From Octopus vulgaris (lineage: Eukaryota): DNA of 64,000 bases. Below are positions 2,353 to 61,261 of this stretch, piece by piece. The notes under the pieces are model-generated. The model did not search any database. It was not told the origin of the DNA and worked only from the letters and a program-made list of their open reading frames with translations. Position 1 is the stretch's first letter. Each line of letters opens with the position of its first letter. Position numbers and translations under genes: made by a program. The stretch is from contig OX597818.1 of assembly GCA_951406725.2 (NCBI GenBank), positions 114,576,001 through 114,640,000 on the forward strand, in the 5' to 3' direction.

Positions 2353-2638
2353 TAGAAGTCACTGCAGCACCAACGGCAGAAGAAGCGGAAGAAATCTGGA
2401 GAGAAATATGGTCGGCGAACGAACCACCAAAAAAAAGGAGTATCAAAATAACAAACTCGGCATCTGAACAACTTTGGACCCCCATAACAACTGAAGAGGT
2501 CACCCAGGCACTGCAAAAACTAAGCAACTGGAAGGCACCTGGGCATGACAAGATCCCCAACTTCTGGTTGAAATATCTAACAGGAATGCACAAAAGCTGG
2601 CTGAAAACTTTAACAACATACTAGCAGAGCCAGAGACA

Positions 2639-4057
2639 ATGCCTGAATGGCTCACGAAGGGGAAAACCATTTTAATTCCCAAATCAAATGAAACAGAAAA
2701 ACCAGAAAACTACAGACCAATAACCTGCCTCCCTACTATGTTCAAGGCATTTACTGCAGTGACATCACAAAGGCTGAACAAGCACCTGGACGAAAACAAA
2801 CTGTTCCCAGAAGAGCAGAAAGGATGCCGCAAAGGCTCATATGGCTGTAAAGATCAACTAATGATTAATAAAGCCGTAACTGAAGACAGCCACAGAAAGA
2901 AGAAAGGCCTCAGTATGGCCTGGATCGACTACAAAAAGGCGTTTGATAGCATCCCCCACACATGGATCCTCGAAACACTAGCCATTAACAAAGTAGCACC
3001 AACAATCATAAAATTCATAGAGCACTCTATGAATAAATGGCAAACAGTCCTACACCTCCAAACAAAAGAGGGACTCATGAAAACCAAAGACATCCCCATC
3101 AGAAGAGGAATATTCCAGGGAGACACGCTCTCTCCACTCCTTTTCTGCTTGGCACTGTCACCTCTATCTGATATGCTAAATAGAACTGGATGCGGATATA
3201 AATGTTACGGCAAAACGATCAGCCACCTTTTATATATGGATGACCTAAAACTATACGCTGAAAATGACAAACAGCTGGAAACACTATTAAAGACTGTTCA
3301 TGGATTTACCAAAGAAATAGATATGAAATGTGGATTAGAAAAATGCGCCAAAGTAACCATGAAAAGAGGAAAACTAGTTAAGAGTAACAAAATCACACTA
3401 GATAAAACCAATGAAATTAAAGAATTAGACCAAAGCAAAACTTACAAATACTTAGGAATCCATGAACTAGATAAGACACAACACACACAATTGAAAGAGA
3501 AAATAAAAAAAGAATATTATAGACGAGTTAGATCAATACTAAACACAGAGCTCAATGCTAAAAACAAGATAATAGATATCAACGCATTAGCTGTCCCAGT
3601 TATAAGTTACAGCTACAGTATCCTTAACTGGACACGAAAGGAACTGACCAAAATAGATAGGAAAACAAGAAAAATAATGACAGGATCTAGGATGCATCAC
3701 CCAAAATCTGACATAGAAAGACTATATATACAACGTATAGAAGGTGGTAGAGGCCTTATACAGTTGGAAAACTACTATAAAATAACCACCATAGGACTGC
3801 AAAAATATCTACTTCAGAAGGAAGGAAAACTGATCCAGATAGCGGCAAAACACGAGCAAAACAAAAAACTGTTCTCAGTATTTAAGGAAGCTGACAAATA
3901 CAAACAAGAAATCATACCACCAAATAAACATGAAGAAGAAGAAGAAGATGGAGAAACAACAAAAGCTATAAAACAAATGAATTCCAAATTAAAAATAGAA
4001 CAGCAACGAACCATGATAAAACGATGGCAAGAAAAGCCCCTTCATGGTAAATACTAG
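2639..4057 (+). pseudogene. Reverse transcriptase ORF segment of copy 1 (472 aa, ends at a premature stop)
   Basis: ORF track with canonical non-LTR RT motifs; the reading frame continues after the stop (4106-4522). Confidence 0.92.
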
Positions 4058-4791
4058 ACTAAACTAAACGCAAAAGAAATAGACAAAGAAAAATCCCAGC
4101 AATGGTTGAGAAGCTCAGGACTTAAAGCAGAAACAGAGGGATTTTTAATTGCAGCACAAGACCAAAGCCTCCCCACCAGAAATTACCAAAAACATGTAAT
4201 GAAAAGAAATATTACAAGTAACTGCAGAATATGTGGAGATGGACAAGAAACAATAAATCATATTATCTCTAGCTGCCCAGTCCTGGCTAAGAAGGAATAT
4301 ATTCACAGACATGACAGAGTTGGAACCTACATACATTGGAAGCTATGCCAACATTATGGAATAACAACAGAAAAAAGATGGTATAGGCACACACCAGAAA
4401 AGGTCACAGAAAACGAGAAAGCAACCATACTCTGGGATATGCCGATACACACAGATAGAGAAATTAAGGCCAACAGACCAGATATAGTTGTCAGAGACCA
4501 CGAAGAAAAAAATGCTTTCTAATTGATGTATCAATACCGGCTGATGACAACGTGTCTCTAAAAGAAATGGAGAAACTCTCAAAATACAAAGACCTGGAAA
4601 TAGAGGTAACTAGAATGTGGAATCTGAAAACAGAAACAATTCCTATCATAGTAGGTGCATTAGGCATGATAAAAAAATATTCAGACAAATACATAACAAA
4701 AACACCAGGACTTACAAACACATATAACATACAGAAAATTGCACTACTAGGCACTGCACACATCCTACGCAGAACACTTTCCATACAATAA
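4058..4791 (+). pseudogene. C-terminal zinc knuckle and RLE endonuclease region of copy 1 (frameshifted)
   Basis: ORFs 4106-4522 and 4552-4791 join across an A-run near 4505 and carry CCHC and PD..D-type motifs. Confidence 0.88.
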
Positions 4792-4898
4792 CCATCAGAG
4801 CATCACAACAAATCACAGCACATACCCAAGGCACACAGAGCTGCGCTCGGTAGTGAAGTGAAAGCACGCTATAAAAATAAAACTACTGAATAATGATG

Positions 4899-4939
<41 letters not shown>

Positions 4940-6235
4940 TACCTGAGATAAAAGAAAAGCTGAAGCAAGATATCCTTGCCAAAGTACAAAGGATCCGCCG
5001 GTACGAGAAACGCCAGCGCTTCTTTGAAGTAAACAAAAAGTTCAACTCCAACCCCAAAAAGTTCTACCAAGAACTTGGCAAAAATAAAATAGAAATCACT
5101 GCAGCACCAACGGCAGAAGAAGCGGAAGAATTCTGGAGAGAAATATGGTCGGCGAACGAACAACCAAAAACAAAAAGGAGTATTAAAACAACAAACTCAG
5201 TATCTGAGCAACTTTGGACCCCCATAACAACTGAAGAGGTCACCCAGGCACTGCAAAGACTACGAAACTGGAAGGCACCTGGGAATGACAAGATCCCCAA
5301 CTTCTGGTTGAAATATCTAACAGGAATGCACAAAAAGCTGGCTGTAAACTTTAACAACATACTAGCAGAGCCAGAGACAATGCCTGAATGGCTCACGAAG
5401 GGGAAAACCATCTTAATTCCCAAATCAAATGAGACAGCAAAACCAGAAAACTACAGACCAATAACCTGTCTCCCTACAATGTACAAGGCATTTACTGCAG
5501 TGATATCGCAAAGGTTGAACAAGCACCTGGACGAAAACAACCTGTTTCCAGAAGAGCAGAAAGGATGCCGCAAAGGCTCATATGGCTGTAAAGATCAACT
5601 AATGATTAATAAAGCCGTAACTGAAGACAGCCACAGAAAGAAGAAAGGCCTCAGTATGGCCTGGATCGACTACAAAAAGGCGTTTGATAGCATCCCCCAC
5701 ACATGGATCCTCGAAACACTAGCCATTAACAAAGTAGCACCAACAATCATAAAATTCATAGAGCACTCTATGAATAAATGGCAAACAGTCCTACACCTCC
5801 AAACAAAAGAGGGACTCATGAAAACCAAAGACATCCCCATCAGAAGAGGAATATTCCAGGGAGACACGCTCTCTCCACTCCTTTTCTGCTTGGCACTGTC
5901 ACCTCTATCTGATATGCTAAATAGAACTGGATGCGGATATAAATGTTACGGCAAAACGATCAGCCACCTTTTATATATGGATGACCTAAAACTATACGCT
6001 GAAAATGACAAACAGCTGGAAACACTATTAAAGACAGTTCATGGATTTACCAAAAAAATAGATATGAAATGTGGATTAGAAAAATGCGCCAAGTAACTAG
6101 GCACTGCACACATCCTACGCAGAACACTTTCCATACAATAACCAACAGAGCATCACAACAAATCACAGCACATACCTAAGGCACACAGAGCTGCGCTCGG
6201 TAGTGAAGTGAAAGCACGCTATAAAAATAAAACTA

Positions 6236-35148: not shown

Positions 35149-36482
35149 GTCTTGTTCTTTCTCTTCTTTCCCTCACCATCTTTTTCTCCTCCTGCTCCTG
35201 CTCCAGCTCTCCCTCCTCTTCCCCCTACTCCCTATTTTGCCAACATATTCTGCGCCCTTATTGGCATTGCCTTTCTCAAATACGAAACTCACTCATCGAT
35301 ATATTCATATGCTAATATTCATGTAACCACACTTCTCTCTCTCTCTGTTCCTCTCTCTCCCACTCTCTCTCATCCTCTCTCGTTCTCTCTCTCTATCTAT
35401 ATATTACTATACTCTCTCACATTCACATTGCTTGTGCTTTTGTGCATGTGTGTTTGCATGTTTGTGTGTGTCCTTGCGCATTCGTGTATATATACATGAA
35501 AAGGTCCTGTGCACATTTTCGTATGTGCAAGCACATTGTGATTTATTAAGAGCAAGAGATAAATAAATAAATAAATAAATATGGACTATATAATGATTAT
35601 GTAATAACGATTGCGTATGACAGCTCAACAGAAAAGGATAAGAATTAAGTTGCTAGTAAGTTGGCAGCGAACTATATCGACATGTAAATACCTTTAAGAT
35701 TCCATTTCTCTCTTGTATGCGTATAGAATACGTGGAAGCAAGCTAACACATTTCTTTTGTTTATTTTACGCCTTCATCCAGCACACATCTTCACTTTTCT
35801 GTCAAATCTTATTACAATTCTAAGAATGTTTATGGCCATTGGACTGTGTACCTTGAGTATCTTTATTTTGAGTATTTTACAGCGTCTTTTCATGATGTTC
35901 TCGTTCAAATCCTGTGTATAGTATTACTGTTTGTCCTTTTTCTTCCCCGTGTTTAAAACATTCCAGAATTCGGATTTTTCAGTTTCTGTAAGAGATCAAA
36001 AATATAAAATCATAGAACTATTGTTTGTCTTTTTTGAAACCGAACAAAAAGGTTTAAAGCTATATTTAAATATTTGAGTTTAAATTCCACGATATTTTGC
36101 TCAGATTTTTTATTTTTTTTTATTTTATGATTTTTCTTCGAGATATCTATACGAACATATTTCGATCAATTGATCCAAAAACTGTACCGAAATTTGTATC
36201 CACCACTATATATGTAATATCAATGCATGAATCGCTCTTCCTATCTCCATTTCAAACCTTACATAACTTCTGCTAACACACACACACACACACAACCACG
36301 CACGCACACACACGCTCACCTATACACACATATATATGTATATTCATATACACGTCTATACATATATAGTCCTTATTTACTTAAGCACATGAATTTATAT
36401 ATATATATATACCAGAGTAAACACATAAATGTGAAACAAGGTGGAAAAAAGAGTACTCAAATACCAGTGGTAGAGTAATATG

Positions 36483-36541
36483 CTTTATTTAAAGCAGCAG
36501 AAAATTCAACATTGTTGAATTTTCTGCTGCTTTAAATAAAG
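36483..36541. repeat. Perfect palindrome with 29-bp arms and a 1-nt centre
   Basis: CTTTATTTAAAGCAGCAGAAAATTCAACA-T-TGTTGAATTTTCTGCTGCTTTAAATAAAG. Confidence 0.92.
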
Positions 36542-36547
36542 TATATA

Positions 36548-39500
36548 TATGCGTGTATGTGTCATGCATATATATATTATATATGCTGTCGGGCACCGCT
36601 ACTGATATTGGGGGTCGCTTTCTCTGCCTTGACCCGAGCATGGAAGGGGGCTCGCCTCTTTGAGCGGGTAAATGAATGGAATGCCTGGTGTGAGTCTTGT
36701 TTTGACTACACCCTCCAAAAACATTTAAATTTTTCGAAAATTTTCTCCAAAAAATTTTCTCCAAAAAATTTTCGCCAATTTTACACAAAAATTTTTCGAA
36801 AATGTACACCGAAAATTTTCCCCAAAAATTTTTCGAAAATTTTCACCAAAAGTTTTAAGAAAATTTTCACCGAAAATTTTACCCAGAAATTTTTCAAAAA
36901 TTTTCCCCAAAATTTTTTCGAAAATTTACACTAACAATTTTACCCACAAATTTTTTCGAAAATTTTCACGGAAAATTTTACCCAAAAATTTTTCGAAAAT
37001 GTACACGAAAATTGTCAACGAAAATTTTACCCAGAAAATTTTCAAAACTTTTCCCCAAAAATTTTTCGAAAATTTTCACCAAGAGTTTTAAGAAAATTTT
37101 CACCGAAAATTTTACCCAGAAATTTTTCAAAAATTTTCCCCAAAACTTTTTCGAAAATTTACACTAACAATTTTACCCACAAATTTTTCGAAAATTTTCA
37201 CGGAAAATTTTACCCAAAAATTTTTCGAAAATGTACACGAAAATTGTCAACGAAAATTTTACCCAGAAAATTTTCAAAAATTTTCACCAAAAATTTTTCG
37301 AAACTTTTCACCGAAAATCTTACCCAAAAATTTTCACCAACAAATTCTCACAAATTTTCACCAAAAATTTTTCGAAAATTTACACTAACAATTTTACCCA
37401 CAAATTTTTCTTAAATTTTCACGGAAAATTTTACCCAAAAATTTTTCGAAAATGTACACGGAAAATTATACCCAAAAATTTTTCGAAAATTTTCACCAAA
37501 AATTTAACGAAAATTTTCAACGAAAATTTTACCCAGAAATTTTTCGAAAATTTTCACCAAAAATTTTTCGAAACTTTTCACCGAAAATCTTACCCAAAAA
37601 TTTTCACCAACAATTTTTCGCAAATTTTACTCAAAAAGTTTTCGAAAATTTTCACCGAAAATTTGCCCCAAACATTTTTCGAAAATTTTCAACGGAAATT
37701 TCCCCAAAAAATTTTTCTAAAATTTTCACCAAAAAATTTTCGAAAATTTTACCCAAAAATTTTTCGAAAATTTTACCCAAAAATTTTCACCGAAAATTTT
37801 CACCCAAAGTTTTCCTAAAAATATGCGTGTATATGTTATGCATATATATTATATAGGCTATCGGGCCCCGCTGTTGATATTGAGGGCCGCTTTCTCTGCC
37901 TTGACCCGAGCATGGAAGGGGGCTCGCCTCGTTGAACTGGGAAATGAATGGAATGCCTGGTGTGAGTCTTGTTGTGGCTACCCCCTCCTAAAACATGGTG
38001 AATAGGACTGGGTATTCATCATTAAAATTTTTCGAAAATTTTCCCCCAAAATTTTCCGAAAATTTTCATCAACAATTTTTCGAAAATTTTCACTGAAAAT
38101 TTTACCCAAAAATTTTTCGAAAATTTTCATCGAGAATTTTAACCAAAAATTTTTCGAAAATATTAACCAAAAATTTTTCGAAAATTTTAACCAAAAATGT
38201 TTCGAAAGTTTTCACCGAAAATTTTCTCCAAAAATTTTTTCGAAAATGTACACCGAAAATTTTGCCTAAAAATTTTTCGAAAATTTTCACCAAAAATTTT
38301 ACGAAACTTTTTACCGAAAATTTTACCCAAAAATTTTCACCAACAATTTTTCGAAAATTTTACCCAAAAATTTTTCGAAAATTTTCATCGAGAATTTGAT
38401 CCAAAAATTTTTCGAAAATTTTAACCAAAAATTTTCGAAAATTTTCACCGAAAATTTTTTCCAAAAATTTTTCGAAAATGTACACCGAAAATTTTACCTA
38501 AAACTTTTTCAAAAATTTTCACCAAAAATTTTACAAAAATTTTTCGAAAATGTACACCGAAAATTTTACCTAAAACTTTTTCAAAAATTTTCACCAAAAA
38601 TTTTACCAAAATTTTCACCGAAAATTTTACCCAGAAATTTTTCAAAAATTTTCACCGAAAATTTTCCCCAAAAATTTTCACCAACCATCTTTCTAAAAAT
38701 TTTACCCAGAAATTTTCACCGAAAATTTTCCCCAAGAATTTTTCGAAAATTTTCGCCCAAAATTTTCCAAAAATATACGTGTGTGTGTCATGCATATATA
38801 TTATATATGCTATCGGGCCCCGCTGTGGATATTGAGGGCTGCTTTCTTTGCCTTGACCCGAGCATGGAATGGGGCTCGCCTCTTTGAGCTGGGAAATGAA
38901 TGGAATGCCTGGTGTGAGTCTTGTTGTGGCTACCCCCTCCTAAAACATGGTGAATAGGCCTGGGTATTCATCATTTAAATTTTTCGAAAATATTCACCGA
39001 AAATTTTACCCAAAAATTTTTCGAAAATTTTCACCAAAAATTTTTGGAAACGTTTCACCGAAAATTTTACCCAAAAATTTTCACCAACAATTTTTCGAAA
39101 ATTTCCCCCAAAAATTTTTTCGAAAATTTTACCCAAAAATTTTCCAAAAATATGCGTGTATGTGTTATGCATATATATTATATATGCTATCGGGCCCCGC
39201 TGCTGATATTGGAGGCCGCTTTCTCTGCCTTGACCCGAGCATGGAAGGGGGCTCGCCTCTTTGAGCTAGGAAATGAATGGAATGCCTGGTGTGAGTCTTG
39301 TTGTGGCTACCCCGTCCTAAAACATGGTGAAAATTTTACCCAGAAATTTTTCGAAAATTTTCACTCAAAATTTTTCGAAACTTTTCACCGAATATTTTAC
39401 CCAAAAATTTTCACCAACAATTTTTGGAAAATTTTACTCAAAAATTTTTGGAAAATTTTCACCGAAAATTTCCCCCAAAACTTTTTCGAAACTTTTACCC

Positions 39501-40588
39501 AAAAATTTTCACCAACAATTTTTCTAAAAATTTTACCCAGAAATTTTCACCGAAAATTTTCACCAACAATTTTTCTAAGAATTTTACCGAAAATTTTCCC
39601 CGGGAATTTTTCGAAAATTTTCACTCAAAATTTTCCCCAGAAATTTTTCGAAAATTTTCACCGAAAATTTTACCTAAAAATTTTTCGAAAATTTTCACCG
39701 AAAATTTTACCCAGAAATTTTTCAAAAATTTTCACCAAAAATTTTTCGAAACTTTTCACCGAATATTTTACCCAAAAATTTTCACCAACAATTTTTCGAA
39801 AATTTCCCACAAAAAGTTTCCGAAAATTTTACCAAAAAATGTTCACGAACAATTTTTCTAAAAATTTTCCCCAGAAATTTTCTCCAAGAATTTTTCGAAA
39901 ATTTCACCCCAAATTTTCCTATAAATATGCGTGTATGTGTCATGCATATATATTATATATGCTAACGGGTCCCCCTGCTGATATTGGGAGCCGCTTTCTC
40001 TGCCTTGACCCGAGCATGGAAGGGTGCTCGCCTCTTTGAGCTGGGAAATGAATGGAATGCCTGGTGTGAGTCTTGTTGTGGCTACCCCCTCCTAAAACAT
40101 GGTGAATAGGCCTGGGTATTCATCATTTAAATTTTTCGAAAATTTTCCCCAAAAATTTTTCGAAAATTTTCACTGAAAATTTTCACCCAAAATTTTCACC
40201 AAAACTTTTTCGAAAATTTTCACCGAAAACTTTACCCAAAAATTTTTCGTATATTTTCGCCGAAAATTTTACCCAGAAATTTTTCGAAAATTTTCACCAA
40301 AAATTTTTCGAGCATTTTCACCGAAAATTTCTGGAAAATTTTCACCGAAAATTTTAACCCAAAAATTTTTCGAGAATTTTCAACAAAAATGTTTTGAAAA
40401 TTTTTGAAAAATGTTTGAAAATTTTCGAAAAATTTTTGTGTAAAAATTTTGGTGAAAAGTTTCGAAAATTTTTTGTGGAAAATTTTCGAAAAATTTTCGG
40501 AGGAAATTTTCGGTGAAAATTTTCGAAAAATTTTTGGGTAATTTTTTCGGCAAAAATTTTCGAAAAATTTTTGGTGAAAATTTTTTAT
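36548..40588. repeat. Composite satellite-like array: five conserved ~180-200-bp units separated by variable-length AAAATTTT-based spacers, with an inverted terminal block
   Basis: Units lie at ~36548-36724, 37822-38023, 38774-38975, 39151-39330 and 39926-40128. Spacers are made of GAAAATTTTC/ACC/ACCC subrepeats, and ~40386-40588 is in the opposite orientation. Confidence 0.92.
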
Positions 40589-42561
40589 TATTATTATTAT
40601 TTGACGACAAATGTCATGTTTTTCATTCGTTCCTAGAAATTTCCATCATTATCTTCTTTTTTATTTCAGTTATTTTCCTAAAAGAAAAACTCAGAATATT
40701 CCACAGTTCACCCCGTTTATCTTGAGGTGTAAAATATGACATTTTAACGTTATATCTTATTAAACATTCATTTCCTTGTATTTCAATATGAATTCTCCCT
40801 CTGGAACAGCAGTAAGAGTTAGAAAGGTGGTAGTAGCGAACATACAATCAACAATTTCTAGAGGAATTTGAAAACGTTGCTGGCAAAAATGCAGATGTTG
40901 AAAATATTTATAAAAAGACAAATATATCCGCGTTCATGTTTATAAATGGAGACATTAACAATGCAATCTAAACAAACGACAGTTATATAAACGAATACAT
41001 CTTTAAACACAGACTAGTATTAAAGATGTTTAGAATATTGGAAATAACGAGCACAACTTTGCTAGTGTTAGCAGTTGGGATCAGATATTTAAATTCGGAC
41101 CAGTTCTCCGGAATCAACAGAGAGAATGGATAAAGATGGGATCGTTCTCATTAGTTGATGATTTTATGGGAGAAAAGTTAAAGAAGAAAATAGCATATTA
41201 GACATACTTTTGTCTCTCGAACAAGGATATCAGTGTGTGCCTGACCTTCAGACTGAATAAAGAAGCAGAACAGAAGTTTCAATAACCTTCCCATTAGTGA
41301 AGACTTGGCAAGTAGGACTATCGGCTGCTAGATGCACACTTCCCGCGCACACACATATGAAATGAAAGTCCTCGAACTTAAACCGAAATCGGTTGATATT
41401 TCATGGGAAGTTTCGGAGATTACCGCTTTCTATGTGAGCATTGGAGAAAAATTAAGTTTTAATGATCTAATGAACTAGCTTTCTTCGTCTGCACCGATTT
41501 GTAAATATACAATTGTATAGCATAATGCGTAGCATTCACATTGGGACAGACATGTGAACGTATTTTTTATACACTGGAATTATTATTAAATTATGAAGGC
41601 TGCGAAACGGCCGTAGTCTTAAGGAAGTTAAGGTATATGTTTGTGTGTTCACAGTATGTGTGTATTTGTGTGTGTGTGTGTGTGTGTAGAAAGCGGATGG
41701 CTTATAAGTTACGGTTGTGTGTTTCCGACAATATGTTCGATGGTTCCATTACTGGTCTGCTTATCGCGTTGTTTCCTTCAATAAAACACTTTCTTTCGCG
41801 ATGTTTCAATATTGTGGGGGGAATCTGAAAACCAGCTTTATATTGGTGCAGTTTTCGATTTCCTTGGTACACAACGATCGAAGAAAATCAATACCCAGGA
41901 AAGAAAAAAAGTGTAAAGGAATTGAATGCGAAATTATGTATGTAGCACATTGTGGAGACCTTCGTTGTGGGAAGTGTAAAATTGAAATAAGTAAGTAAGG
42001 AACACCGAAAAGATGTCTGTATATACATGTGTGTGTACACGTGCGTGTAGAGGTTCTAAAATTAGCTAAAAATATTTTTAAAAATTGTTTAAAGACAAAC
42101 TTGCGAAGTATACGTGGGGTGAGAATAAAGTGAAGGCCAAAATATAAAAACGATAGAATTAGGAAAGTAAAATTCACAACAGACTACTCAATAGCAAGCG
42201 TAGAATCAAAGTCGTTTGGTGTGAGCTATACAATTGCGGGTGCATTATTTTATTGAATAAATTGGCGCTCGTAAATAACATATATAACAATAACTTAATT
42301 ACAATTTTAATGCAGTAAATATAATATTTACAAAAGCCAAAAGAAGACAATCATAAATAATAGAGAGTAAATGAAAAATATTCAAAACAATATTAAAAAT
42401 AACATGCATTTTACCCATTTATAAATTAGTATTCATAATATTTTATAGAAACAACCATTTAAAATATCTTCTCTGTTAATGAACTTGTAAGCCAATGAAT
42501 GAATTTCTCGTCATAAATAGGATTAACAATTTCCTATGTAATCCTGGAAATTGTAAATACC

Positions 42562-51459: not shown

Positions 51460-51730
51460 TTATTTTATAGAAGGAGCTTCTACAGGACTAGAACTGTTTC
51501 ATTCAAATGAAATCATCAGGAAGCTTCCTGATGATTTTATAGAAGGAGCTTCTACAGGACTAGAACTGTTTCATTCAAATGAAATCATCAGGAAGCTTCC
51601 TGATGATTTCATTTGAATGAAACAGTTCTAGTCCTGTAGAAGCTCCTTCTATAAAATAAATTAATTTACTCTGCCATGTATTGAGTACCTTATTTACTGT
51701 GGTTAACCCCGACTCAACCCGGGACCTACA
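51459..51730. mobile_element. Penelope-end-like remnant in (TA)n: a 72-bp tandem duplication plus a ~124-bp perfect palindrome carrying three hammerhead motifs
   Basis: Direct repeat at 51463-51534 and 51535-51606; palindrome 51534-51657 centred on AAGCTT. The Penelope assignment is inferred. Confidence 0.7.
51594..51644 (+). ncRNA. Putative type-I hammerhead ribozyme (two further copies on the minus strand at ~51475-51525 and ~51547-51597)
   Basis: AGCTTC-CTGATGA-T[TTC ATTT GAA]T-GAA-ACAG-ttctagtc-CTGT-A-GAAGCT. All three stems can form, and the cleavage triplet is GUA. Confidence 0.75.
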
Positions 51731-59435: not shown

Positions 59436-60711
59436 TGTTTCTTTATTAGCCACACAGGGCTGCACACAGACAGGGCAAATTACAAGGTAGAGCTTTTCTT
59501 TTGGGGGTAAAAAAAAAGTGGGCTTGGTTTTCGATCAAAAGGGATCGTAAAAGGAAAGAAAGAGGACAAAAAAGGGGGGGATAAAAAAGGGGGGTGATAA
59601 AAAAAGGGGGGGGGTTGATCAATAGGGATCGTTATCACAGAAATGTCAATATGAAGTGTAAAGGGGAGGACAGGTGAGGTTTACCCGTGGAAAGAAAAGC
59701 CTACGGAAAAGACCACGGTAACCTCGGTCAATGAAGTCACGTTATATTTCTTTTTTTTTGCAAATAAACAACTCTCTGTATTAATTTTTACGGTTCATAG
59801 AATCATAGTCAAGATGGCTTCGTCATTCATACGTGCCATCCTTGCTACATTCACCCATCTTTTTTTAAAACATTCACTAGACAAAACTTGCCTCTCTACT
59901 CTCATTTTCCTTTTCAAGTGGAGAGATTGACCAGAAAGGAAAGTGTTTGTCTCTAATCCTTTCAGGCGCGTCCACCAGATACATTCTTTCGCCATAGCCA
60001 CAAGTATGATAAAAATAGCTCTTCCTTCCCGTTTGAAGGAAGGAGGCGTGACTATATTAACGATAGACTCGGCTGATAAACCGACACGTCCCACACGTGA
60101 CAGCAGTCGGTCGACATAAGCCCACAGGTCGGAGATTGTTGGACACTGCACGATTGCGTGCAGAGCGGTTTCATCGCTCTGCCCGCATCTCGGACAGGTC
60201 GGCCCCGTGTTTCTCGAGCCATGCCTATAGAGCTTATCCCGAACGGGTAGCGCTTCTCGGTAGCACCGCCAGGCCAGGGATCTCTGGAAGTTGTCCATAG
60301 GTCCCGGGCCGAAAGTCGTTTGAAACAGGCGGGTCAGGTATTCCTCGTCGACGCCCAGGTTTGCCCCAAGATCGTCGTCGTACCTCCCCTCCACTAATCC
60401 CCTATAGAATGTTTTGGTTGTGTTGAAGTCACTCAAGGTCGACCGGGACGGCAGAGTTGCTTGAGAGCAACGCGACACTCGCGGTGCCATTCGCCCTTCC
60501 TCGGCCTCTTTTTGATCCACGACTGCAGTTCGGTCATGGAGACGAGCTGCGGGAAAGCGTGCCTCACAAACGGCGACCACACCTGTTCACCGTCGTCTAC
60601 GAAGAGCCTAAGATGTCGCAGTCTCAGCGCGTGTCTGCGCATCATCAACCACGGCATGCCCAGTCCTTCTTTTAACGGGTGTTGACAGCAAATGGACCGC
60701 CTGACCATCGG

Positions 60712-60712
<1 letters not shown>
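59436..60712 (-). mobile_element. 5'-truncated Tx1/L1-clade LINE (C-terminal zinc-binding region plus 3' UTR) within a GATA repeat
   Basis: EGGLG-like remnant LKEGLGMP, WRCYREALPVRDKL and CPRCGQSDETALHAIVQCP (zf-RVT-like CCHC). The 3' UTR ends AATAAAGAAAC, and GATA-type repeats lie on both sides. Confidence 0.85.
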
Positions 60713-60798
<86 letters not shown>

Positions 60799-61261
60799 GT
60801 ATAACTCTATGTATGCACATACCTTCATTCGTTGTTGAATCAGTAATATATTTAGGACGAGATAACAGGGAGGCAGAAACGAAAATCATTATTAATTTGT
60901 TTTTGTATCTTATAAATAAAAATTCAAATAAAAATTTGCTATTTTGATCGGTACCATTCTTTCACTGGTTGCAGAAATAAACCAAGCTGCGCCCATACTG
61001 GAGCACACTTCAGTCGTTATTTGTTATTTCATTTTATTATACTTTTGCTTTAAACATGATTTCATTGGTTGTTTCGACACTTATTTCCGTCTGGTACTTA
61101 TTTTAACGATTTCAATATATTGAATGGCTACCTTTGACATAAAAAGGTTATTTATCATCGACAGATACGGACACACCCTCTCCACTTACCTTTTCTCTCT
61201 CCGCCTGTTTCTCTGTCTCTGTCTCTCTCTTTTTCTCATACACACACACAGACACACACAT

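What the first reader, a model, noticed from the sequence alone, without database searches (positions are those of the whole stretch)
36548..40128. Five conserved GC-richer cassettes embedded in rapidly varying spacers
Seen: ~180-200-bp units with invariant blocks TGCCTTGACCCGAGCATGGAA and AAATGAATGGAATGCCTGGTGTGAGTCTTGTT, separated by spacers of roughly 1100, 750, 175 and 600 bp. Each unit has a GCATATAT-ATT-ATATATGC hairpin (one mismatch in unit 2) and a CGAGC..GCTCG stem whose substitutions fall in the loop. I recognise no tRNA, snRNA, rRNA or coding homology. Inference: an undescribed composite satellite or modular transposon arm, or a tandem array of structured ncRNA or protein-binding cassettes. 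The array starts right after a 29-bp-arm palindrome.
Basis: partly seen in the sequence, partly recalled or inferred. Interest (0 to 1): 0.75.

Follow-up and report, generated by a model that had tools for sequence, protein, structure and literature searches.

The report
Dead LINE tail copied inside minisatellite
The five cassettes are local copies of the tail end of one broken jumping gene (a LINE retrotransposon), sitting in a short-unit repeat found at many places in this animal genome, and they were most likely multiplied by repeat-driven copying errors rather than kept for a function.

Summary
About 163 bp of each unit is the 3' end of a decayed, abundant LINE family. The unit has 778 first-look candidates genome-wide. 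It follows the ORF end in 43 of 46 loci picked by protein, and a reverse-transcriptase domain lies upstream in 2 of 2 copies scanned. The five units form one clade (100/98) with a junction found only here (3 of 3 hits): one truncated insertion plus 30 bp of flank, re-copied four times. The spacers are a 12/13-bp A-tract minisatellite found on 13 contigs, with no shared ends or target duplications in 22 arrays. The palindrome is a separate, younger hairpin element. Units have diverged from the family majority about as much as ordinary dead copies (7.6-10.4% vs 10.9%), fold no better than shuffles, and most of unit 5 is deleted in two other organisms' runs. One residue remains: the two invariant blocks are longer than chance gives (P about 0.003, post hoc). 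The scan noted this kind of satellite earlier with another cassette (e1-8666887).

The parts
36408..36541 (+). Separate dispersed hairpin element inserted in a (TA)n tract; its shortened fold-back end is the 29-bp-arm palindrome (36483-36541). Not part of the array.
   Evidence: First 104 bp are 100% identical at 26 other scored loci; 708 candidates, 40 scored. All 11 of 11 loci read end in the same inverted arm with longer, variable hairpins.
36549..36726 (+). Unit 1, the original copy: about 30 bp of AT/GT microsatellite-like host flank plus a 5'-truncated LINE 3' end (LINE part from 36581). It later lost 26 bp of its 3' end between two CAT triplets.
   Evidence: Sister to units 2-5 (89/80) and ancestral at 2 sites. 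Joined to native upstream flank. The deletion is read from the alignment.
36727..37822 (+). Spacer 1, 12/13-bp A-tract minisatellite (periods 12-13, 24, 37, 61 and 233)
37823..38023 (+). Unit 2 (flank + LINE 3' end 37853-38015 + TCATCATT)
38024..38774 (+). Spacer 2, same minisatellite
38775..38975 (+). Unit 3 (LINE part 38805-38967)
38976..39151 (+). Spacer 3, same minisatellite
39152..39330 (+). Unit 4, with its 3' end deleted into the satellite at a shared GAA
39331..39926 (+). Spacer 4, same minisatellite
39927..40127 (+). Unit 5 (LINE part 39957-40119). In runs X2 and X3 its 5' part is joined straight to window 40861.
40128..40585 (.). End of the minisatellite: forward to about 40415, then about 170 bp inverted, ending at a (TTA)n tract
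   Evidence: (I12-I25)
40582..41632 (+). Right flank, a 1.05-kb segment with one 92% paralog on contig C10; unrelated to the array

Best explanation
The array is a local composite repeat: the 3' tail of one 5'-truncated, dead LINE retrotransposon, with 30 bp of its insertion-site flank, present in five related copies inside a dispersed 12/13-bp minisatellite, most likely multiplied by repair or recombination errors and without a function of its own. Steps: (1, shown) a LINE of an abundant APE/RT-type family left a 163-bp 3' fragment in an AT/GT microsatellite. (2, shown) A block of the genome-wide A-tract minisatellite lies directly behind its tail; (inferred) it arrived as a patch at a DNA break or by template switching, because the arrays have no element ends. 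(3, inferred) One template switch from the satellite back to the flank, at a shared AT, made the junction that units 2-5 all share. (4, inferred) Unequal exchange or slippage between satellite blocks, which align in many registers, then gave units 2-5 and the uneven spacers; microhomology deletions trimmed units 1 and 4, and self-complementary TTTTCGAAAA words allowed the inverted end. (5, inferred from 100% identity) The hairpin element inserted upstream later. The units look conserved because they are recent paralogs of complex sequence set in low-complexity DNA that changes length fast.
For: Unit positions 33-195 match dispersed copies: the 35 non-window matches among 40 scored (778 candidates) are 83-89% identical. 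In 25 loci read, the copies share one 3' end followed by AT-rich microsatellite tails and have variable 5' ends. Picked independently by the C-terminal protein (22,405 candidates, 150 scored), 43 of 46 fetched loci carry the unit just behind the ORF end. Pfam RVT_1 lies upstream in L029 (E 6e-19) and L155 (E 4e-27). The five units form one clade against 36 dispersed copies (100/98) with 9 shared derived sites. The tail-satellite junction has 3 hits in the genome, all in the window. Divergence from the family majority is 7.6-10.4% vs 10.9 +/- 2.6% for dispersed copies. Neither block occurs exactly in any of 34 dispersed copies, and each block contains one of the array's own mutations. A 47-base satellite pattern has 39 exact hits on 13 contigs, control 0. 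Other arrays of this satellite hold other repeated passengers: a 282-bp piece twice in L074, and a Rep-like cassette in multi-copy clusters at 91-93% identity, like these units at 92%. Most of unit 5 is missing in runs X2 and X3, labelled as two other organisms.
Against: The 32- and 21-bp invariant runs are longer than random placement of 27 variable columns gives. P(sum of the two longest >= 53) is 0.0027; a null weighted by family mutability gives 0.002 for both runs, and 2.3% of 342 pairs of dispersed copies reach that sum. Eight control sets of the other satellite-borne cassette give P 0.04-0.82 (two pairs of sets overlap). 15 of the 27 variable columns lie in the first 44 (Fisher P 0.004). 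Spacer identity in forced alignments (85-91%) is lower than unit identity (92%), though satellite register is ambiguous. No clear target-site duplication was found for the LINE fragment, and the empty site was not seen. Steps 2-4 are inferred from junctions only.
Confidence: 0.88

Rival explanations
1. The array arose as above, but the two blocks have since been kept by selection or binding-biased homogenisation, as a cluster of protein-binding sites. Block 2 contains TGGAATG, which resembles a TEAD site (motif recalled, not tested with a matrix).
For: Excess invariance of the two blocks, P 0.002-0.03 depending on the null. Columns 44-143 are 4-10% from the family majority, with 8% of dispersed copies as low as their mean. 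Other notes of this scan report transcription-factor-site satellites in the same genome (unchecked AI notes).
Against: The locus was chosen because of the blocks, so the P values are post hoc. The TGGAATG core is inherited from the LINE and is intact in 22 of 36 dispersed copies against 18.6 expected. Unit 5's blocks are deleted in runs X2 and X3. No host exon was recognised near the array (13 ORFs scanned, two of them from L096; not a full gene annotation). Patchy gene conversion or error-prone synthesis near junctions could give the same pattern (inference).
Confidence: 0.07
2. The whole block is one arm of a fold-back or Helitron-type transposon, or a mobile composite satellite whose cargo is this cassette.
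For: The array has an inverted end. The satellite is dispersed, and elsewhere it travels with a 31-bp repeat and a Rep-like cassette. Helitrons carry tandem repeats in molluscs (PMC10048060, passages).
Against: No shared termini or target duplications among 22 arrays; the flank matches are only the 31-bp companion repeat, satellite remnants and apparently common interspersed repeats. Only 9 of 22 arrays have mixed orientation, in no fixed pattern. The LINE tail-satellite junction occurs only here. The window has no Rep cassette or 31-bp repeat.
Confidence: 0.03
3. The units are a tandem cluster of structured non-coding RNA genes.
For: CGAGC..GCTCG is intact in 5 of 5 units. RNAalifold shows 2 of 51 pairs with a two-sided change. 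In dispersed copies two stem pairs show C-G to T-A (6 of 36) and G-C to A-T (4 of 36).
Against: Ten stem columns are all invariant by chance with P 0.12. The stem is Watson-Crick intact in only 9 of 36 dispersed copies and mutates faster than average (0.19 vs 0.11). The two-sided changes are what decay of two CpGs gives (about 4 and 2 expected, worked by hand). Folding z is +0.35 and -1.6. No Rfam hit. The AT hairpin straddles the insertion junction (0 of 71 dispersed loci).
Confidence: 0.02

Closest known systems
RTE-clade non-LTR retrotransposons (features as stated in PMC5850137, passages; octopus RTE-2_OV in PMC9115989, passages)
   Same: RT-encoding parent, no poly-A tail but labile short tandem repeats at the 3' end, many 5'-truncated copies; RTE families are reported in octopus (PMC13282606, first third read).
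   Different: This family is decayed: among the 150 scored hits, no close copy has an open frame over 321 aa. It has a unique 3' UTR of about 240 bp, unlike the microsatellite-dominated UTR of RTE-2_OV. Clade placement was not tested by phylogeny.
Satellite DNAs derived from LINE 3' ends, such as the cetacean common satellite (L1 3' end) and chicken HinfI (CR1) (PMC9659126, passages)
   Same: The 3' portion of a LINE becomes a tandemly repeated unit, by unequal or non-allelic recombination.
   Different: Only five copies at one locus, each embedded in a second, unrelated minisatellite; not a long homogenised array.
Dispersed short satellite arrays of molluscs carried by Helitron/Helentron elements (PMC10048060, passages; PMC7492417, search listing only)
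   Same: Short tandem arrays scattered over many chromosomes.
   Different: No conserved element ends flank the 22 arrays examined here, so no carrier element was found.
Penelope-like inverted pLTR insertions with an optional tail (PMC3846280, passages), for the upstream palindrome only
   Same: Inverted arms of unequal length with a one-sided extension and a palindromic junction.
   Different: No Penelope ORF was searched for or linked here; this is a resemblance only.

Membership tests
LINE (non-LTR retrotransposon) 3' fragment | Reverse transcriptase ORF upstream of the unit in longer copies | tested here: met
   RVT_1 in L029 and L155, both of which carry the unit downstream; 5 of 6 RT loci carry it
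LINE (non-LTR retrotransposon) 3' fragment | Common 3' end with variable 5' truncation | tested here: met
   25 loci; 43 of 46 protein-picked loci
LINE (non-LTR retrotransposon) 3' fragment | Target-site duplication at this insertion | tested here: inconclusive
   None seen by eye; both flanks are microsatellite-like and the 3' side is occupied by the satellite
RTE clade | Short tandem-repeat tail instead of poly-A (PMC5850137) | tested here: met
   Tails are mostly (AT)n, (ATGT)n or (ATG)n, labile between copies; some are followed by short A runs
RTE clade | APE endonuclease and RT in a single ORF | tested here: inconclusive
   RT found. An APE-like D..SDH stretch is visible in L155 (recalled motif) but Pfam gave no endonuclease hit on the broken frames
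RTE clade | Placement in the RTE clade by RT phylogeny | not tested
Fold-back/TIR or Helitron element | Conserved termini shared between copies, target duplication (TIR types) | tested here: not met
   22 arrays, no shared ends or duplications
Structured ncRNA array | Covariation and better-than-shuffle folding | tested here: not met
Structured ncRNA array | Discrete transcript | not testable with these tools
   Only contigs were available, not raw RNA reads
Local tandem amplification of one insertion | Monophyly, shared junctions, locus-unique composite | tested here: met

The most novel reading that the evidence does not exclude
The 12/13-bp A-tract minisatellite is an end-less mobile repeat that spreads as break patches or DNA circles and repeatedly captures and multiplies whatever lies beside it (a LINE tail here, a LINE piece in L074, a CRESS-virus-like Rep start elsewhere). 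In this array, protein binding has begun to preserve two blocks of the captured LINE tail: a repeat-built binding-site cluster caught early in its making.
Probability: 0.08. Interest if true: 0.55.

Novelty: new member of a known kind. Interest (0 to 1): 0.15.

Why it matters
As it stands it matters little: it is one more case of a transposon fragment turned into a tandem unit. It is a clear small example of how a dispersed minisatellite amplifies a neighbouring sequence, with the order of events readable from junctions. It also warns the scan that 'conserved cassettes in variable spacers' in this genome should first be searched against dispersed LINE tails. The wider satellite family, which has no carrier ends and bears different passengers at different loci, is the part worth a systematic study. 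I found no paper describing it in seven searches. The repeat library of PMC13282606, whose supplements I did not open, may already list both families.

Tried and rejected
Rfam at gathering and E-value thresholds and ARAGORN found nothing on the units. The 361-aa ORF across spacers 3-4 (38954-40036) and a 117-aa reverse ORF over unit 1 have no Pfam match and read as satellite translations. The palindrome as the array's terminal repeat was rejected. The first tree grouped units 1 and 4 because satellite tails were left in; it was redone on the core only. The 25 copies found by DNA similarity are biased toward unit 5, so rates were recomputed on copies picked by protein: 46 fetched, 3 without the unit, 7 dropped for 12 or more gaps, 36 used, of which two pairs are near-duplicates. 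Spacer substitution rates could not be measured cleanly because the register is ambiguous. Expression: no RNA holder listed. The empty pre-insertion site was not recovered, because contigs break at the repeats; run X4 had no cover on the left flank. The contigs of X2 and X3 that cover 40619-40905 carry the substitutions of the C10 paralog, not this locus. The protein atlas gave no answer, which leaves clade naming to recalled motifs. No circovirus-type nonanucleotide was found consistently near the Rep-like cassettes. A sequence look-up of the unit in earlier scan notes found nothing, and the spacer look-up gave two unrelated notes.

Full report
Observation. Unit 1's AT hairpin has two extra bases. 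The spacers are one low-complexity minisatellite with 12-13-bp monomers and higher periods of 24, 37 and 61, which continues to about 40585 and ends in an inverted stretch. The window lies on contig C5 of a 2.8-Gb animal genome. I read it as an octopus genome from recalled repeat content, and earlier scan notes say the same.

What the unit is. A search of the genome with unit 5 gave 778 candidates. Of the 40 scored, 5 are the window units and 35 are dispersed copies at 83-89%, matching mostly positions 33-195. In 25 such loci the copies end at the same base, are followed by AT-rich tails, and extend upstream for variable lengths into a reading frame. That frame has a reverse-transcriptase domain in both copies scanned (E 6e-19; E 4e-27). 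In the reverse test, the C-terminal peptide found 22,405 candidates (150 scored), and 43 of 46 fetched loci carry the unit just behind the stop. The unit is therefore the last 163 bp of a LINE 3' untranslated region. Labile repeat tails fit the RTE clade (PMC5850137, passages), but the clade label rests on that and on a recalled motif, not on a tree. The family looks dead: the close hits have broken or short frames. The first 30 bp of each unit are host microsatellite-like flank. The AT hairpin straddles the flank-LINE junction and occurs in 0 of 71 dispersed loci.

Local origin. Against 36 dispersed copies picked by protein, the five units form one clade (100/98), with unit 1 sister to units 2-5. 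They share 9 derived sites. The tail-satellite junction has three exact hits in the genome, all here. Units 2-5 share one satellite-to-flank junction, while unit 1 keeps its native upstream neighbour. Units 1 and 4 have lost their 3' ends at short shared words. Per-lineage distances are about 0.03 among units 2-5 and 0.055 for unit 1. On the scale used in PMC13282606 (0.09 = 25 million years; first third read) that would be roughly 9 and 15 million years, a rough figure on a borrowed clock.

The spacer family. A 47-base satellite pattern has 39 exact hits on 13 contigs, control 0. Twenty-two arrays, this one included, start and stop at varied phases, fuse directly to unrelated DNA, share no termini or target duplications, and 9 of them switch orientation. 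Many carry repeated passengers: a 31-bp repeat, a 282-bp piece twice in L074, and a cassette that encodes the start of a Rep-like protein. That cassette has 184 candidates, and its scored copies sit in multi-copy clusters on 7 contigs. Its copies within arrays are 91-93% identical, like the units here. The window's architecture is thus a habit of this satellite, with a different passenger. Recombination-driven expansion of transposon pieces, including LINE 3' ends, is described in PMC9659126 (passages), and dispersed short arrays in PMC10048060 (passages).

The palindrome. Its first 104 bp are identical at 26 other scored loci (708 candidates). In 11 of 11 loci read, the element ends in the same inverted arm with a longer hairpin and sits in (TA)n. 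With no private change in 104 bp it is likely younger than the array, so it cannot be the array's terminus. Its unequal inverted arms resemble Penelope-like insertions (PMC3846280, passages), which I did not test.

Is anything conserved? Overall, no. The units lie 7.6-10.4% from the family majority against 10.9 +/- 2.6% for dispersed copies. Neither block is exact in 34 dispersed copies. Folding is no better than shuffles, the covariation term is unfavourable, and the stem's invariance has P 0.12. In runs X2 and X3, labelled as two other organisms, a contig joins the start of unit 5, recognised by its private variant, to window 40861. Their contigs over 40619-40905 carry the substitutions of the C10 paralog. 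So about 900 bp, including unit 5's blocks, is deleted there; this rests on one contig per run, with 30 loose letters shown. Against my reading: the two invariant runs are longer than nulls give (P 0.0027; 0.002 weighted, and 2.3% of dispersed pairs reach the same sum), and more extreme than eight control sets. Variable sites crowd the first 44 columns. The test is post hoc, and patchy conversion or error-prone synthesis near junctions could explain it, but weak constraint is not excluded. Spacer identity (85-91%) is somewhat below unit identity (92%) in alignments whose register is ambiguous.

Verdict. This is a real feature made of three known kinds of repeat, most likely neutral (0.88). It is a new member of a known kind, with interest 0.15. 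No paper on this satellite appeared in seven searches. No supplements were opened, and a published octopus repeat library may already hold these families.

Noticed in passing
L031, L039/L066, L044/L068, L046/L070, L079, L137-L148: The same minisatellite carries a repeated cassette with a TATA-like stretch and the first ~36 codons of a CRESS-virus-like Rep (Pfam Viral_Rep E 0.037, below cut-off); 184 candidates, scored copies on 7 contigs. It is 67% identical over 126 bp to the Rep in L096. Already noted by the scan (e1-8666887).
   Followed up: partly
L096:1477-1788 (G000 C14:64337847): The only over-cut-off Viral_Rep hit among 3 candidates (81 bits): a 104-aa Rep fragment that appears to interrupt a Merlin/IS1595-like transposase frame (DDE_Tnp_IS1595 E 3e-4, below cut-off).
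   Followed up: partly
L041, L065, L067, L068, L070, L078-L080, L082: A 31-32-bp repeat rides with the minisatellite on several contigs, in both orientations.
   Followed up: no
window 36408-36541; L052-L062: Young, abundant non-coding element with a fixed left part and a fold-back arm of variable length, always in (TA)n; shape resembles Penelope-like inverted ends.
   Followed up: partly
window 39969-40860: About 900-bp deletion in runs X2 (organism B) and X3 (organism C), while X5 (organism A) and X8 (organism D) hold this locus's right flank. Left-flank variants group C with D, so the deletion does not follow that grouping and may be an old shared polymorphism.
   Followed up: partly
window 40582-41632 and G000 C10:94113714-94114766: 1.05-kb two-copy segment (92%), both copies starting at a (TTA)n tract; nature unknown.
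   Followed up: partly
window 2549-6093 (+): Two overlapping-content LINE RT frames in tandem (502 and 385 aa; RVT_1 E 5e-33 for the first), from a different family.
   Followed up: no
window 59798-60885 (-): LINE C-terminal fragment with a zf-RVT domain (E 2e-8).
   Followed up: no
window 51462-51609: Perfect 72-bp tandem duplication, 2.1 copies, 100% match.
   Followed up: no
L040: A 270-bp minisatellite block sits between what look like two non-adjacent parts of another LINE (my reading), as expected of a patch at a rearrangement junction.
   Followed up: no
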